A stretch of 6,154 nucleotides of DNA from a virus. Lineage: Duplodnaviria; Heunggongvirae; Uroviricota; Caudoviricetes. Made by a program: the position numbers. The stretch lies in the IMG/VR virus record IMGVR_UViG_2703718784_000005, positions 1 to 6,154 of that record; one strand, 5' to 3'. This document shows positions 1-4,954 of the stretch, piece after piece. Positions within the stretch are counted from its first letter, which is position 1; each line of letters starts with the position of its first letter.

Positions 1-3000
1 CCGTAGGCCGGAAAAACTGGATGTTCGCGGGTTCCGACAGCGGTGGTGAACATGCGGCGGTGTTGTACTCGCTGATCGGCACATGCCGTCTGAACAATGT
101 GGAGCCAGAAAAGTGGCTGCGTTACGTCATTGAACATATCCAGGACTGGCCGGCAAACCGGGTACGCGATCTGTTGCCCTGGAAAGTTGATCTGAGCTCT
201 CAGTAAATATCAATACGGTTCTGACGAGTCGCTTACATTCAGATAACACGCTAAACTTTTTAATAATACATCTTTTTAGACATTTTAAATGAATATTAAA
301 GACTCGCTTCAACTAATCATATACTGATGTATTAATAACCAGGACCTTATCTATATACGGCTTTCGAATATCCCATGTTGCACCGCCGGAATAATGCTCA
401 CAGGAATATATTTTATTTCCTGTAGCACCAGTGGATGTGGTATAAATCGGTCGATCATAAGGAGTTCTTTTCCAGTTATAATACCCGACCAGTGCAGGCA
501 TGATTGCGCATGGATATCCAAGGTCCTTTTCAAATTTGATATCAACAGGTATTAACTTCGCGTCAAGCAGCATCATTTCGCCATGATAAATCATCTCACC
601 GTCCGGGTTATACATGGCGATACCATACTCAGAAGGTGGAGTAACCATATTCGCGAAAGCATAAACCGTCGTAACACCAGGGTTCGTTCCCCTGACAATT
701 ACATGAAGCCTTAGTGCATGATATCCATCAATCTGTTCATGCGTGTACATGACATCGGCCTTCTTCTCTGTTCTGATAAAGAAAAAACAACTTTTGCCTG
801 ACGGGATTGATGTTTTAAAAAAAGACTTTTCAGTCGCCGGTATGGTGCCTTTGTTGATCAGACACTGCGGCGTAAAACCTGGACTTATCCATACGCTGCC
901 ATCCGGCTTCATAATGCTCAAACCATACATGACACTTATCCCCAGAATGTATAAATATAAGATCCCATACCCTGCTCAAGATTCGACCACGTCACCGTAT
1001 TGCCATTAATGGTTATCTTCGGTACTTTCCGATCCGCAAATACGTTATTCCAGGGAAATAAACAACATACAGCCTGCAATGATTTCCCGTCGGGTTTATT
1101 CGTGTACGTCTTTGAGCCAGACTCCGCTGTAAATCTGTCCAGGAAAAATACCGGAGTCAGCACGCCCGTAACATTAACGTTATTTCTGTTATAAATGGCA
1201 AAACCGTATTCCAATACTCACCTCCTGATCAGCGTAATCTGCCTATGCGAACAGCCAGTCGTCCATTCTGATCATAAACCTCAATTTTATCATTGCGGAT
1301 CACCAGTCCTACATTCTGATTAGAGTAACGAATTGTCAGTTGCCCTTGTGACGTAACACTGAAAAGGCCTCCAATATTCAGGTTACCCTGAGAATCAACC
1401 TGAAAGTTTCCGTTCTGAATAACGGCACTCCGGATAACTGGCGAAGTGATACTTACCCCGGCTTTTACCTCATCCGCCACAACCTTCCGCGACACCAGTG
1501 TTTCAATCACCGCGTCATAAATCATCGCTTTCGGGATCACAACCTTGCCACCTGATACCGCAAACGGATAGGCGGTGTTATCCGGGTTGTTCGGGTCAAA
1601 GACAAACAACTGCGACGCAGAAATTGCAACCTGACTTACAGGCCTACCTTCACTGTCTTTTCCGGCGACAATCCCGATCCCCGCAGTGATACCATCAACT
1701 CCCGCTTTTTTTGACCACATTGCCAGAAACGCCTCACCGCCTTCTTTATCCAGTTTAGTGATGCGCTTGTCGACCTCATTAAGCGATTCACTGGTTGATG
1801 AATCCAGTGTGCTAATGCGGGTTTCAATACCACCAATCGTTCTTGTCGTTTCTTCCCTGAGAGTCCCCACAACTTCGGTTGTCTTAATTGCAGCATCCTT
1901 TACAGCCTGCCCCTGCGCGTTTTTTATTTCTTTACGCAGCTCGGACACAACCGGCGACTTTGCAGCCTCATCGCGGATCTGGTCAATGATGGCCTTCACG
2001 CCGATCTGTGTTTGTGCCTGAGTGCCTTTTTCAGCATTCCATGGACCTTTCACTCCTGCCGCGTTAACAAAACGTATCCAGTAAAATCCCGACCAGCCAG
2101 GGTCAACCGGATCGCCGTAAACCTGCCCCGGCGTCGTGGCAACCAGCACTGCATCAGCAAGGTCATCCTCCGTACCCCGCCAGATTTCAGTCAGTGAATG
2201 TCCGCGATAATTAGGCATATCCCATTCAAGAAGAACCGAGCCAAATCCTCCTGTCGCCTTAAAATTCAGCGGTTTTGTGGGAAAATCAACAGTCATTAAA
2301 GTACTGTCAATCTCAATACCCGGATTCAGTGCATATGAGGCACCACCCGATGTTCGACGCCGGGCGAGTTTAAGACCAACCAGTTCCTCACGGGTCACAA
2401 ATGCGTGGCGTCCGTCACCACGCTGCCCGGTGCCAATTTCCATGTTCTCCACAACTGTGGATAAATCCTTCCCCGCACGCCACGGTTTTCTGGTCATACC
2501 GGCATCTCCGACATCGATGTACTCAGGGTTATTCGTTCCACCTGCCCGAATCCGGATACCATCACCTGCCAGTTTTGCCCGGTTGCTGCCGGAAGTCTCA
2601 CCACACTTCCCTTAAACGTACCCGGCGCAAAATGAATCACAGGAACATCATCAGCCATAATGGTGATCCCCACCCGCTCAGGCGCCGGAGATTTCACCCT
2701 GATACAGGAAAAAGAGGTTCTTTCAGGTAATGAAAAAATTTTTGAATGCCACCTTATCGTGGAGGGCAGAGAGCTCCCGGCAAGCACTGACATTTTGTCT
2801 CCTGTCACCACGCGCATCATATCTTTCGCGAGATCAACCCATGCGCAGTCAAACGGTGTACTGAGATAACGGATATCCATGTTCACCGGACTGAATACAA
2901 ACACATCCTGCTTACCATCCGGTTTCGTGTAACAGGCAATGTACTCACCACGCCAGGAATAAGCCACAATGGACGCCGGGTTAAACTGACTCTGCCACTG

Positions 3001-4954
3001 TTCAGGTGAAATAATCTTTTCCGTTGCCAGTGCTGTATTACCGTTTACATCAACAGATACCAGACCGTTTGTCCCAGCATAGAGTACGAATCCCTCCATC
3101 GCCACCATACTTCTTCGGCTCAGGCATGCCTGCATGGAAGGAATTCTGGAGCCAGAAATTGTGGAAGGCGATACCCCACTGAACAGATAGGGCTCCCCCT
3201 TTGTCGCCACCACCAGTGACGTTCCCAGCGGACAGATAGCCACAATATCTTCTGCCGTCGTGTGACGATTCACTTCCGGCCATGCATACGGCAGATACGC
3301 TTCCGAAAACATCACTTCATTACCGGCAAACCCGGCGGCAATACCATTAGCCATCAGGCAAAGGCCTGTCATATTCTCTGGCGGCGGCAGGTAATCCCAT
3401 GTCGCCAGAGAAGGTCCAAGGTTTTTCCCCGGTATTTTGTCCGTGTAACTGAGCACGGATGCATCCAGTTCAGCCACAAGTAAAAAATCCGCTTCTCCTC
3501 CACCTGATGCAGAGCGATAAATCCGGCGGCGTTTAATACTGGCATTCTGCAATGGCACCGGAGACAGCGTCAGCTGTACCGCAGTCCCCGGAGTACGGAG
3601 TGTTACCTCCAGAGACGCCGGACCTGGCGGACCTTCTTCACCATAATCTGAGACAAAGGTTTCCGTATAAAACCGGGTTTCGTCATCATTCGGGTTATCG
3701 TCAGAAACATCACCGCCCTGCTGAACAGTACAGACAGGTGCTGTCGTCGGCGCGGGGATCCCCAGACGATACGATGATGTCGGGTGATTCCCGTCCCCTT
3801 TTGTGGCAATGGTCGCATCCGTCACTTTAGGAAAACGCCCGTCAGTGTAGTAAATACGCCCGTGGGAGTCCTGAGCGACCGGACTGCGGATCACATCCAC
3901 CACATCCGTCCATGCAAACCAGAAATCGTCACGGTAATGAAAAATGGTTTTCGGCTTAATCGCGAATGTTTTCTCAGCCTCTGACATCTGGTGTTCAGGC
4001 GTGATCACTCCATAGCGAAAATGACAGTTTTCTGCCAGTACAGCAGAATGATCTGGCAGCATAGATGCAATAACGCCTGGCATCATCCCGCGCATAGTTG
4101 TTATATCGATATAAGGCATGGTTGTCTGGTATCCGAAAATTTGAATGGCAGGTGAGTCACTGAATTGAAGTTTTAAAGGCGGCATACAATTGCGCCTGTG
4201 CAGAATACAGATTTCCAGAAATCTTGAAAAATTACATCATTATTATCAGCATCCGTCCGGAAAAATTTCTCTGGCAACTTAAAACAATATCCTATATATC
4301 CGGCGTCTCCGGTATGTAGAACGTGAAGTTTTTAAAATTATTCATTTACCATTTAACTAATTTTTAGATCCTGGGTTACTCCCGTCTTTTTCATTGCCTC
4401 CACGAAAGCGGAACTAACAGAACCTGACCAGTAATACTGGAACCCACTAACAACGCCCTGATAAATCATGGTTTGTGTAGCACCACCTACGTTTACGGTG
4501 ATGTTACCTGCTTTACCACCGGATAAATAAACAGCAGCTGTCGGTGTAGAGTTCGTCAAAAAGTGAGAAAGTGTAACGACAGCCCCCACCAGTCTCCCAG
4601 AACCACAGTTTTCAGCGTTTGTAATTGTCCCTTTGCTTTTTTCTTCTAATGGCCAATCAGCTCCAACCGCCCCCCAGTTTTCAACTTGATCCGAAGAGTT
4701 CCATTTATAGTAAGCGGTTTCTATTTTACAACCCATAGCTCGCCCCACCATTTGACTCATCATAAAAGGTTTATCCAATCCTAGTTTAGTGCCAGCAGCC
4801 CCCATCCATTGCTCACCTGTTTCGCTCTTAGCCGAAGAACCTACCCATCCCGATGTTATCCCCATTTCATATATCCTTCTGAAATTCGTGAGGTGAGTAT
4901 CATCCCCACAATTTAAATTCAGTAGAAACCAGAAACTACAACAGCTGTCGTTTA

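What the first reader, a model, noticed from the sequence alone, without database searches (positions are those of the whole stretch)
1229..4185. Host-specificity (J-like) function appears split across two translationally coupled ORFs
The 563-aa and 422-aa ORFs overlap in ATGA (stop 2496-2494, start 2497-2495). The 422-aa product resembles only the C-terminal half (FN3 plus DUF1983-like region) of lambda-J-type proteins, which are normally single proteins of roughly 1000-1150 aa. The 563-aa product has an FN3-like segment but an N-terminus I do not recognise. The downstream frame is also open for about 38 codons upstream of its ATG (to 2611) and encodes protein-like sequence (...SGSNRAKLAGDGIRIRAGGTNNPEYIDVGDAG-M...). 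This is therefore either a genuine two-protein tip complex, a frameshift-inactivated single gene, or a chimeric rearrangement.
Basis: partly seen in the sequence, partly recalled or inferred. Interest (0 to 1): 0.5.

Follow-up and report, generated by a model that had tools for sequence, protein, structure and literature searches.

The report
Stx phage tail nozzle plus needle
The two overlapping genes are not a broken or split lambda-J gene: they are the already described tail nozzle and central tail needle of a short-tailed Shiga-toxin phage, so the finding is ordinary.

Summary
ORFs 2494-4185(-) and 1229-2497(-) overlap in ATGA, and the downstream frame is open for 38 codons upstream of its ATG.

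The "split J" reading does not hold. The window is the tail region of an O104:H4-type Stx2a prophage. The 422-aa protein is 100% identical to phi24B gp56 and Sp5 ORF71. gp56 is the trimeric central needle: a nozzle-docking N-terminal domain followed by a J-like fibre without J's receptor-binding domain. The upstream protein is 95% identical to phi24B gp57, the hexameric nozzle. It matches the GP4 nozzle (8jov_A, E=1e-52) and shows nothing in common with lambda J. Its real length is probably 541 aa, starting at 4119.

In Sp5, in-frame deletion of either gene abolishes tail formation. The GGAG-N8-ATGA junction recurs in 74 of 79 related viral loci, down to 51% nozzle identity, and three loci separate the genes by 43 nt. 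No fusion was found. Substitutions in the overlap region fall on nozzle third positions. The upstream extension of the needle frame carries stop codons in diverged relatives.

Verdict: a genuine two-gene arrangement that is already known. Interest is low.

The parts
2494..4119 (-). Tail nozzle gene (541 aa plus stop). Orthologue of phi24B gp57 (vb_24B_39), Sp5 ORF70/ECs1232 and 933W L0124.
   Evidence: It is 515/541 identical to phi24B and 517/541 to VT2-Sakai. It matches the GP4 nozzle 8jov_A at E=1.1e-52. Foldseek top hits are podophage nozzle or tube proteins, from a low-confidence model. A hexameric nozzle was seen by cryo-EM in phi24B. It is essential for tail formation in Sp5.
4120..4185 (-). 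In-frame 22-codon upstream extension (MPPLKLQFSDSPAIQIFGYQTT) that produces the 563-aa ORF. It is probably not part of the protein.
   Evidence: Homology to all other lineages stops exactly at 4119/4120. Homologues are 540-543 aa. The GP4 alignment starts at residue 26 of the 563-aa ORF, opposite residue 4 of the GP4 nozzle. RefSeq annotates 541 aa. Neither ATG has a good Shine-Dalgarno site in this lineage, so the start remains inferred.
2506..2509 (-). GGAG Shine-Dalgarno site for the needle gene. It lies inside the last codons of the nozzle gene, 8 nt before the ATG.
   Evidence: Read directly from the sequence. GGAG-N8-[A/G]TGA is conserved in Stx phages of 81-100% nt identity, in Salmonella prophages and in most viral loci.
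2494..2497 (-). ATGA start/stop overlap between the nozzle stop (TGA) and the needle start (ATG).
   Evidence: The same 4-nt overlap occurs in 74 of 79 related viral loci.
1229..2497 (-). Central tail needle/fibre gene (422 aa plus stop). Orthologue of phi24B gp56 (vb_24B_40), Sp5 ORF71/ECs1233 and 933W L0125.
   Evidence: It is 422/422 identical to phi24B and VT2-Sakai. PF09327 matches residues 256-333. It matches DEV gp56, a J-like short fibre (9ze4_N), at E=1.8e-12. phi24B cryo-EM and negative stain show a trimeric needle anchored in the nozzle lumen. It is essential in Sp5.
2270..2497 (-). Needle N-terminal domain (about aa 1-76), the nozzle-docking part. It has no counterpart in lambda J or DEV gp56.
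   Evidence: Alignments to DEV gp56 and J start only at about residue 77 and 131 respectively. This domain is the most conserved part across needle variants (A2). In phi24B the N-terminal domain sits between the nozzle tip domains. The domain boundary is approximate.
1718..1999 (-). Needle coiled-coil segment (V167-M260), variable in length among relatives.
   Evidence: Residues 167 and 260 are V and M, as in phi24B gp56. The AF2 model has helices at 167-265, at low confidence. This segment is deleted or expanded in variants P0030, P0044, P0065 and P0010.
1232..1717 (-). Needle C-terminal J-type central straight fibre (beta-prism), ending in the short-type tip ...IEVYDQNGRLAVRIGRL.
   Evidence: PF09327 hit. 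The segment aligns to lambda J 853-984 and to DEV gp56 271-427, including the terminal motif. There is no Ig_GpJ_C domain.
936..1214 (-). 92-aa gene (Sp5 ORF72; phi24B gp55, annotated there as 75 aa). Candidate needle-tip accessory protein.
   Evidence: It starts 14 nt after the needle stop and matches phrog_557. It always accompanies short-type needles. It has been proposed to form the tip complex together with gp54. It is not essential in Sp5 on K-12.
313..930 (-). 205-aa gene (Sp5 ORF73; phi24B gp54). Candidate receptor-binding protein at the needle tip.
   Evidence: It matches phrog_425. gp54 was detected at low abundance in the phi24B virion, and extra density is seen at the needle tip. 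Modelling predicts it to be the BamA binder. It is not among the essential genes of Sp5.

Best explanation
These are two separate, functional, co-transcribed late genes of a short-tailed (933W/phi24B-type, Sepvirinae) Stx2a prophage.

The upstream gene encodes the tail nozzle. It is most likely 541 aa, starting at 4119. Six copies form the distal ring of the tail below the two adaptor rings.

The downstream gene encodes the 422-aa central needle/fibre, which is a homotrimer. Its N-terminal domain (about 76 aa) plugs into the nozzle lumen. After it come an FN3-like domain, a flexible coiled coil (V167-M260) and a lambda-J-type central straight fibre (beta-prism), which projects about 25 nm from the tail. 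The needle lacks J's C-terminal receptor-binding domain. It ends in the same short motif as Pseudomonas phage DEV gp56, which recruits separately encoded tip proteins. On receptor engagement the needle is released, and the ejection proteins and DNA exit through the nozzle.

The ATGA overlap, with a GGAG site 8 nt upstream, is an ordinary translational-coupling junction inside the late operon. It is not a frameshift scar.

What is shown and what is inferred:
- Gene identities, junction conservation and purifying selection in both frames were shown here.
- Oligomeric state, position in the virion, needle release and essentiality were shown experimentally for proteins 95-100% identical.
- Actual translational coupling, the 541-aa start in this lineage, and the roles of the downstream 92-aa and 205-aa proteins are inferred.
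For: - **Source.** The window is 100% identical to phage P13771 and to O104:H4-type prophages. The context is that of a podovirus: portal, N4-gp56-type capsid, adaptors, collagen-like fibre and a giant LPD protein.
- **Identity to characterised proteins.** The needle is 422/422 identical to phi24B vb_24B_40 and to VT2-Sakai H0141. The nozzle is 515/541 and 517/541 identical to their neighbours.
- **phi24B cryo-EM and proteomics.** gp57 is the hexameric nozzle. gp56 is the trimeric needle anchored in the lumen, with a coiled coil at V167-M260 and a C-terminal beta-prism, and it is absent after ejection. V167 and M260 are present in the window protein.
- **Sp5 genetics.** In-frame deletions of ORF70 (567 aa as annotated) and ORF71 (422 aa) each abolish plaques and lysogeny while leaving DNA-filled heads. 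Table 1 of that paper lists complementation for the essential genes.
- **Nozzle homology.** The nozzle matches the GP4 nozzle 8jov_A at E=1.1e-52. The preprint reports the same figure (29% identity, 2.9e-53).
- **Needle homology.** The needle matches DEV gp56 (9ze4_N) over residues 77-195 and 257-421. DEV gp56 is a J-like fibre followed by gp55 and gp54 with overlapping stop and start codons.
- **Junction conservation.** GGAG-N8-ATGA is conserved in 9 Stx phages down to 81% nt identity, with no indel across 2891 nt in six good records. It is also conserved in Salmonella prophages and in 74 of 79 viral loci down to 51% nozzle identity. Three loci have a 43-nt spacer with their own GGAG.
- **Selection.** Against phi296, substitutions by codon position are 50/32/199 in the nozzle body, 4/0/16 in its last 38 codons (nozzle frame) and 44/23/169 in the needle.
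- **No fusion.** Needle homologues are 345-588 aa. Nozzle homologues are 540-613 aa. Among the 150 best of 4475 nozzle-family cluster representatives, none has room for a needle (>=345 aa) after the nozzle match, and in nearly all the match ends within a few residues of the protein's C-terminus.
Against: - The structural evidence for phi24B is a 2026 preprint. Its needle N-terminal domain was fitted at only about 10 A, and the rest comes from an AlphaFold model.
- My own AF2 models are poor (nozzle pLDDT 56, needle pLDDT 36) and add little.
- The start codon of the nozzle in this lineage is unresolved. The Shine-Dalgarno site that precedes M23 in other lineages was lost at the mosaic breakpoint, and an in-frame ATG lies 22 codons upstream.
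- Translational coupling was not measured.
- The receptor-binding step is unsettled. The proposed tip proteins (92 aa and 205 aa) are dispensable for infection of K-12 by Sp5.
Confidence: 0.95

Rival explanations
1. Frameshift-inactivated single gene: an ancestral J-like gene of about 985 aa was broken by a 1-nt indel near 2498-2611, leaving a pseudogene.
For: The needle frame is open for 38 codons upstream of its ATG in this lineage. Some database records do carry frameshifts in these genes (P13374, phi367, L066).
Against: - Both ORFs keep their frames with strong third-position substitution bias, and there are no indels across 2.9 kb at up to 19% divergence.
- The upstream extension of the needle frame has stop codons in diverged relatives, while the nozzle C-terminus is conserved (36-37 of 39 residues).
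- Three distant loci separate the genes by 43 nt.
- No fused homologue appears in three large searches.
- Both genes are individually essential, and both proteins are present in virions.
Confidence: 0.01
2. Programmed -1 ribosomal frameshifting near the end of the nozzle gene yields a nozzle-needle fusion in addition to the two separate proteins, as with lambda G/GT.
For: The needle frame is -1 relative to the nozzle frame and is open for 38 codons here.
Against: - There is no X_XXY_YYZ heptamer in the last 38 codons. The only two in the gene are at codons 212 and 307.
- The -1 frame is closed by stop codons in relatives.
- The cryo-EM stoichiometry of 6 nozzle to 3 needle copies, with the needle N-terminus free in the lumen, does not call for a fusion.
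Confidence: 0.01
3. Recent chimeric rearrangement: the nozzle-needle junction is a recombination scar that joined the C-terminal part of a siphovirus J gene to an unrelated gene.
For: - The region is mosaic. There is a module breakpoint exactly at the nozzle ATG (4119/4120).
- The needle C-terminal tips are exchanged between lineages (short tip, Ig_GpJ_C tip and other tips).
- The needle as a whole is a domain chimera: a podovirus docking domain joined to a J-type fibre.
Against: The junction at 2494-2511 and both flanking coding ends are conserved across all lineages examined, down to about 50% protein identity. The needle N-terminal domain is the best-conserved part of the protein. Any domain fusion is therefore ancient, lies inside the needle gene, and is functional.
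Confidence: 0.02
4. True gene fission: the nozzle is a highly diverged homologue of the J N-terminal hub, so that the pair together equals one J.
For: The combined length (541+422 aa) is close to that of J proteins. The low-confidence Foldseek search lists a lambda gpJ chain at rank 13.
Against: - That Foldseek hit has probability 0.16 and TM 0.08.
- BLASTP of nozzle against J gives E=0.11 over 70 residues, and in J's C-terminal domain at that.
- None of PF24801, PF13550, PF24421 or PF24489 matches at E<=1.
- The nozzle instead matches hexameric podovirus nozzles: GP4, with weaker fold hits to SU10 and P22 gp10. J, by contrast, is a trimeric hub.
Confidence: 0.01

Closest known systems
Stx phage phi24B gp57 (nozzle) and gp56 (needle); equivalent to Sp5/VT2-Sakai ORF70 and ORF71 (ECs1232/ECs1233) and 933W L0124/L0125
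   Same: They are orthologues. The needle is 100% identical and the nozzle 95% identical. The 4-nt overlap is the same, and so are the downstream 92-aa, 205-aa and (in intact relatives) lom genes.
   Different: The module upstream of the nozzle differs: collagen fibre plus Gp38-like adhesin here, against the 933W-type fibre. The breakpoint lies exactly at the nozzle ATG. This gives a different in-frame upstream extension (22 codons here, 26 annotated in phi24B) and removes the AAAGGA Shine-Dalgarno site.
Ralstonia phage GP4 nozzle (PDB 8jov chain A)
   Same: Clear sequence homology over residues 26-499 of the 563-aa ORF (E=1.1e-52). It is the top Foldseek hit. The phi24B tail core is described as closely resembling that of GP4.
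   Different: Identity is only about 29%. GP4 carries three kinds of fibre with different folds. I did not examine the GP4 gene order.
Pseudomonas phage DEV gp56, a J-like short tail fibre (PDB 9ze4 chain N), with gp55 and gp54
   Same: - It is a stand-alone J-like trimeric fibre of about 425 aa in a podovirus.
- It shares the FN3-like region, the straight-fibre region and the C-terminal motif (...VFDQAGKLRVHIGNL against ...VYDQNGRLAVRIGRL).
- It is followed by two small genes in a tightly packed operon. In DEV these genes encode an adaptor and the receptor-binding protein.
   Different: - DEV gp56 attaches beside a separate plug protein (gp74) rather than plugging the tube itself.
- Its N-terminal knob is unrelated to the first 76 residues here.
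- DEV gp55 and gp54 are essential, whereas the Sp5 92-aa and 205-aa genes are not.
- No PDB sequence matches the 92-aa or 205-aa proteins.
Lambda gpJ (tip attachment / host specificity protein, 1132 aa)
   Same: The needle shares the central straight fibre (PF09327) and the segment preceding it. Needle 131-389 corresponds to J 779-984.
   Different: J's N-terminal 780 residues have no counterpart: FNIII-A, Phage-tail_3 hub and the Ig-like domains. The C-terminal LamB-binding Ig_GpJ_C domain has none either. The setting is a podovirus, not a siphovirus tail tip. The nozzle is unrelated to J.
P22 gp10 (tail hub/nozzle) and gp26 (needle)
   Same: The functional layout is the same: a hexameric distal tube closed by a trimeric coiled-coil needle that leaves at ejection. 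P22 gp10 appears among the fold hits (8eap_D, 9jg6_a). From my own knowledge, genes 10 and 26 are adjacent in P22.
   Different: There is no detectable sequence similarity. The gp26 needle is not J-like. The fold match rests on a low-confidence model.

Membership tests
Lambda gpJ-type tip attachment / host specificity protein | N-terminal hub part (FNIII-A_GpJ PF24801, Phage-tail_3 PF13550) | tested here: not met
   Lambda J gives strong hits to both families. Neither the 541-aa nor the 422-aa protein matches either family, even at E<=1.
Lambda gpJ-type tip attachment / host specificity protein | Tandem Ig-like/FN3 domains (PF24421, PF24489) | tested here: inconclusive
   There is no Pfam hit. 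Needle 131-194 aligns weakly to J 779-855, the end of the second Ig-like domain (E=0.048). Needle 77-195 aligns to the corresponding region of DEV gp56.
Lambda gpJ-type tip attachment / host specificity protein | Central straight fibre (Phage_Tail_Tip/DUF1983, PF09327) | tested here: met
   The needle matches at residues 256-333 with E=6.5e-11 and 42.6 bits, against a cut-off of 22. BLASTP aligns needle 251-389 to J 853-984 (E=3e-4).
Lambda gpJ-type tip attachment / host specificity protein | C-terminal receptor-binding domain (Ig_GpJ_C, PF12421) | tested here: not met
   The domain is absent from the window needle. It is present in allelic needle variants P0015 (E=6.9e-36) and P0044 (precomputed Pfam hit).
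Lambda gpJ-type tip attachment / host specificity protein | Siphovirus tail-tip gene context (tape measure, gpM/L/K/I upstream) | tested here: not met
   The context is terminase, portal, N4-gp56-type capsid, adaptors, fibre, nozzle, needle and a giant LPD protein. No tape measure gene is present.
Podovirus tail nozzle (GP4 nozzle / phi24B gp57 class) | Sequence homology to a structurally defined nozzle protein | tested here: met
   8jov_A matches at E=1.1e-52 over 474 residues. The protein is 515/541 identical to phi24B gp57. The family has 4475 cluster representatives, typically 525-560 aa and aligned end to end.
Podovirus tail nozzle (GP4 nozzle / phi24B gp57 class) | Beta-propeller-centred nozzle fold | tested here: inconclusive
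   The AF2 model is poor (mean pLDDT 56, pTM 0.36). Foldseek still ranks podophage nozzle or tube proteins first (GP4, Pa223, SU10, Pan3, VP1, A4, P22 gp10), followed by beta-propellers. TM scores are only 0.2-0.3.
Podovirus tail nozzle (GP4 nozzle / phi24B gp57 class) | [quoted passage not shown] | not testable with these tools
   Shown by cryo-EM for the 95%-identical phi24B protein (preprint).
Podovirus central needle/fibre (phi24B gp56 class) | Orthology to the protein seen as the axial fibre | tested here: met
   It is 422/422 identical to phi24B vb_24B_40. V167 and M260 delimit the coiled coil as reported.
Podovirus central needle/fibre (phi24B gp56 class) | Encoded immediately downstream of the nozzle as a separate gene | tested here: met
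   A 4-nt overlap is found in 74 of 79 viral loci and a 43-nt spacer in 3. The same arrangement occurs in Salmonella and E. coli prophages.
Podovirus central needle/fibre (phi24B gp56 class) | Trimer whose N-terminal domain is anchored in the nozzle lumen and which is released on ejection | not testable with these tools
   Reported for phi24B at about 10 A local resolution, supported by an AlphaFold3 model.
Programmed -1 frameshift fusion (lambda G/GT type) | Slippery heptamer plus a conserved open -1 frame across the junction | tested here: not met
   There is no X_XXY_YYZ heptamer in the last 38 codons. The -1 frame has stop codons in relatives.

The most novel reading that the evidence does not exclude
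The short-type needle C-terminus (...IEVYDQNGRLAVRIGRL, shared with DEV gp56) may be a docking platform for interchangeable, separately encoded receptor-binding cassettes: 92+205 aa here, and a 293-aa or 383-aa protein in Salmonella relatives. These cassettes would be evolutionarily interchangeable with a cis-fused J-type Ig_GpJ_C domain.

The 92-aa and 205-aa genes are dispensable for Sp5 infection of K-12. The needle or the lateral fibres may therefore trigger ejection without them, and the cassette would then act as a conditional host-range extender rather than the obligatory BamA binder now being proposed.
Probability: 0.3. Interest if true: 0.4.

Novelty: already known. Interest (0 to 1): 0.1.

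Why it matters
It matters little as a discovery. The pair is the nozzle and needle of the medically important short-tailed Stx phages. It was already defined by Sp5 genetics (2016) and by phi24B cryo-EM (2026 preprint).

The practical value lies in annotation:
- Public records call the nozzle 'hypothetical' or 'internal virion protein'.
- They call the needle 'host specificity protein J' or 'tail fiber'.
- Several records over-extend the nozzle start.
- Some records carry sequencing frameshifts that mimic pseudogenes.

One real open question remains nearby: which protein of these phages binds BamA. That question concerns the genes downstream of this finding.

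Tried and rejected
- **AF2 of the nozzle.** A 16-sequence alignment gave mean pLDDT 56 and pTM 0.36. It was usable only for a rough Foldseek ranking.
- **AF2 of the needle monomer.** A 12-sequence alignment gave pLDDT 36. I judged it unusable and ran no fold search. Only the order of secondary-structure elements (beta, long helices at 167-265, beta) agrees with the published domain layout.
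- **Pfam and NCBIfam for the nozzle.** No family matched, even at E<=1.
- **PDB sequence searches for the 92-aa and 205-aa proteins.** Nothing matched below E=0.2. There is thus no sequence link to DEV gp55 or gp54.
- **Promoter and terminator scan.** It found no promoter-like site on the minus strand and no terminator-like site between the minus-strand genes. This fits a position inside the long late operon.
- **Start-codon test against the preprint.** I tried to use the preprint's 'gp57 Arg47-Leu57' loop to decide between the 541- and 567-aa numbering. Neither numbering fits, so that test failed.
- **Full-text search for PDB code 8JOV.** It found no paper. The identity of the entry came from the Foldseek description, 'Portal-tail complex of phage GP4'.
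- **Considered and rejected.** Pseudogene, programmed frameshift, recent chimera at the junction, and nozzle as a diverged J hub. See the rival explanations.

Full report
**1. The observation**

The six-frame ORF list shows a 563-aa ORF at 2494..4185(-) and a 422-aa ORF at 1229..2497(-). On the minus strand the junction reads ...TCGGAGATGCCGGTATGACC.... The needle ATG is at 2497-2495 and the nozzle TGA at 2496-2494. The description is therefore accurate.

**2. Where the window comes from**

Positions 237-6154 are 100% identical to Escherichia phage P13771 and to Stx2a prophages of O104:H4-type E. coli. They are 96-99% identical to many other Stx-converting phages. Positions 1-236 are the end of an IS66-family element.

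Annotated relatives place the two ORFs in the late operon of a short-tailed Sepvirinae phage. The order is terminase, portal, N4-gp56-type capsid, adaptors, collagen-like fibre, Gp38-like adhesin, then the two ORFs. After them come genes of 92 aa and 205 aa, lom, hok, and a giant LPD protein of about 2800 aa.

**3. What the two proteins are**

*The upstream protein.* It has no Pfam or NCBIfam family. It matches PDB 8jov chain A at E=1.1e-52 over residues 26-499. Foldseek labels 8jov as the portal-tail complex of Ralstonia phage GP4.

A 2026 preprint on the Stx phage phi24B reports cryo-EM of the tail. It finds a dodecameric portal, two adaptor rings, a hexameric nozzle (gp57), six lateral fibres (gp61), and a trimeric axial needle (gp56). 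The needle's N-terminal domain sits in the nozzle lumen. Residues V167-M260 form a coiled coil and the C-terminus forms a beta-prism. The needle density disappears after ejection. The preprint gives 29% identity and E=2.9e-53 between gp57 and the GP4 nozzle.

In the phi24B genome the corresponding genes are vb_24B_39 and vb_24B_40, which overlap by 4 nt. The window nozzle, counted from M23, is 515/541 identical to the phi24B protein. The window needle is 422/422 identical and has V167 and M260.

In Sp5 (VT2-Sakai) the genes are ORF70 (567 aa as annotated) and ORF71 (422 aa). In-frame deletion of either abolishes plaque formation and lysogenisation. [quoted passage not shown]

*The downstream protein and its relation to J.* It matches PF09327 (Phage_Tail_Tip, formerly DUF1983) at residues 256-333. 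Direct BLASTP against lambda J aligns needle 131-194 with J 779-855 and needle 251-389 with J 853-984.

Pfam divides lambda J into these domains:

| Domain | J residues |
|---|---|
| FNIII-A_GpJ | 86-207 |
| Phage-tail_3 | 330-498 |
| Ig_J | 610-714 |
| Ig_J_second | 716-818 |
| Phage_Tail_Tip | 845-972 |
| Ig_GpJ_C | 1001-1132 |

The needle therefore corresponds to about 200 residues of J. It lacks both the hub and the receptor-binding domain. Its first 76 or so residues have no J counterpart.

The best solved relative is Pseudomonas phage DEV gp56 (9ze4_N, 429 aa, E=1.8e-12). This is a stand-alone J-like short fibre of a podovirus. Its gene is followed by gp55 and gp54 with overlapping stop and start codons. 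gp54 is the LptD-binding protein.

The nozzle shows nothing significant against lambda J (best E=0.11, and in the wrong region).

**4. Is the split real, or a frameshift or chimera?**

*Close relatives.* I aligned nine related phages of 81-100% nt identity across 1229-4300.
- GGAG-N8-ATGA is present in all nine.
- Six good records have no indel across 2891 nt.
- Against phi296, differences by codon position are 50/32/199 in the nozzle body and 44/23/169 in the needle.
- In the last 38 nozzle codons the differences are 4/0/16 in the nozzle frame, which becomes 16/4/0 in the needle frame.
- The nozzle C-terminus is nearly invariant.
- The upstream extension of the needle frame has a stop codon 13 codons before the ATG in four phages.

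*Salmonella prophages.* Here the needle is about 60% and the nozzle 62-68% identical. The arrangement is the same: a 541-aa gene, a 4-nt overlap, and stops in the upstream needle frame.

*Viral contigs.* A scan gave 79 loci with a complete nozzle, at 100% down to 51% identity.
- 74 have the 4-nt overlap.
- 3 have a 43-nt spacer with their own GGAG.
- 1 is an artefact of my script's start-codon choice.
- 1 has what looks like a 1-nt assembly error.
- None is fused.

*Length distributions.* Needle homologues are 345-588 aa and nozzle homologues 540-613 aa. Among the 150 best of 4475 nozzle-family cluster representatives, none has room for a needle after the nozzle match, and in nearly all the match ends within a few residues of the protein's C-terminus. 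Longer members carry an internal insertion after about residue 90-147. This explains why PHROG 511 has 862 profile positions and aligns the window protein to positions 315-859.

*Frameshifting.* No slippery heptamer lies in the overlap region.

Pseudogene, programmed frameshift and recent junction chimera are therefore all rejected.

**5. The start of the nozzle gene**

Homology to all other lineages begins exactly at the ATG at 4119. The 933W/phi24B lineage has AAAGGA before that ATG, and Salmonella relatives have GGAG. Gene callers and RefSeq give 541 aa.

In the window lineage a different upstream module, the collagen fibre plus Gp38-like adhesin, abuts the ATG. The Shine-Dalgarno site is gone and an in-frame ATG lies 22 codons upstream. 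I take 541 aa as most likely, but this is an inference.

**6. How it most likely works**

Six nozzle subunits close the tail. A needle trimer plugs the nozzle with its lineage-conserved N-terminal domain and presents a flexible J-type fibre.

The needle family is modular (alignment A2):
- The N-terminal domain and the FN3-like region are conserved.
- The coiled coil varies in length.
- The C-terminal tip comes in two forms.

The short tip occurs here and in DEV gp56. It always comes with downstream small genes: 92/93 plus 204/205 aa, or a single 293-aa or 383-aa gene. The long tip carries a J-type Ig_GpJ_C domain or another long end. It is followed directly by hok or by a DUF4376 gene.

This fits published proposals that the 92-aa and 205-aa proteins sit on the needle tip and bind BamA. 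It is in tension with Sp5 genetics. ORF72 and ORF73 each had their own deletion constructs, yet neither is among the nine mutants that lost infectivity on K-12.

**7. Verdict**

The 'split J' framing is wrong, because the upstream gene is a podovirus nozzle. The arrangement is already known from genetics and cryo-EM of proteins 95-100% identical. Novelty: already known. Interest: low.

Noticed in passing
window 313-930(-) and 936-1214(-): The 205-aa and 92-aa genes downstream of the needle are currently proposed to be the BamA-binding tip complex (phi24B preprint; Matusiak 2025). Their Sp5 orthologues ORF73 and ORF72 had individual in-frame deletion constructs and are not among the nine mutants that lost plaque formation or lysogeny on K-12. 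The two lines of evidence conflict.
   Followed up: partly
needle C-terminus, window 1232-1400(-); loci L010-L015, L017-L019: The needle tip comes in two forms. The short tip (...IEVYDQNGRLAVRIGRL, also found in DEV gp56) always comes with downstream accessory genes: 92+205 aa, or a 293-aa or 383-aa gene. The long tip carries Ig_GpJ_C (P0015, P0044) or another long end (P0048). It is followed directly by hok/gef or DUF4376 and lacks the 92+205-aa genes.
   Followed up: partly
window 4119/4120: A mosaic breakpoint lies exactly at the nozzle start codon. Upstream of it, the window lineage carries a collagen-like fibre plus a Gp38-like adhesin instead of the 933W-type module. The Shine-Dalgarno site seen in other lineages is lost, and a lineage-specific in-frame 22-codon extension appears.
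   Followed up: partly
window 1-236: The end of an IS66-family element (DDE_Tnp_IS66_C; transposase C-terminus at 21-206, + strand) abuts the phage sequence at 236/237. This is 76 nt past the stop of the 205-aa gene and about 15 nt before the point where lom starts in intact relatives. I could not tell whether lom survives beyond the IS.
   Followed up: no
L001 (P13374, NC_018846), position equivalent to window 2738; L008 (phi367); L066: Public records carry single-base indels that split these genes. P13374 has a 1-nt deletion that gives 496-aa and 54-aa fragments. phi367 has 13 single-base insertions across both genes. L066 has a 1-nt deletion. Sister genomes are intact, so these are probably sequencing errors. 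They are also the likely source of the fragment PHROGs 26027, 25801, 27708 and 24144.
   Followed up: partly
window 4353-4865(-) and 4952-6154(-): The lateral fibre has collagen-like repeats and ends in a Peptidase_S74 intramolecular-chaperone domain. It is followed by a T-even Gp38-like adhesin gene (Gp38_N, E=3e-20). A self-cleaving chaperone domain and a separate Gp38-type adhesin on one fibre look like an odd combination.
   Followed up: no
database annotation of the two genes: The nozzle is labelled 'internal virion protein' (PHROG 511, RefSeq P13374) or 'hypothetical'. The needle is labelled 'host specificity protein J', 'tail fiber' or 'membrane protein'. Several records over-extend the nozzle to 563 or 567 aa.
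   Followed up: yes
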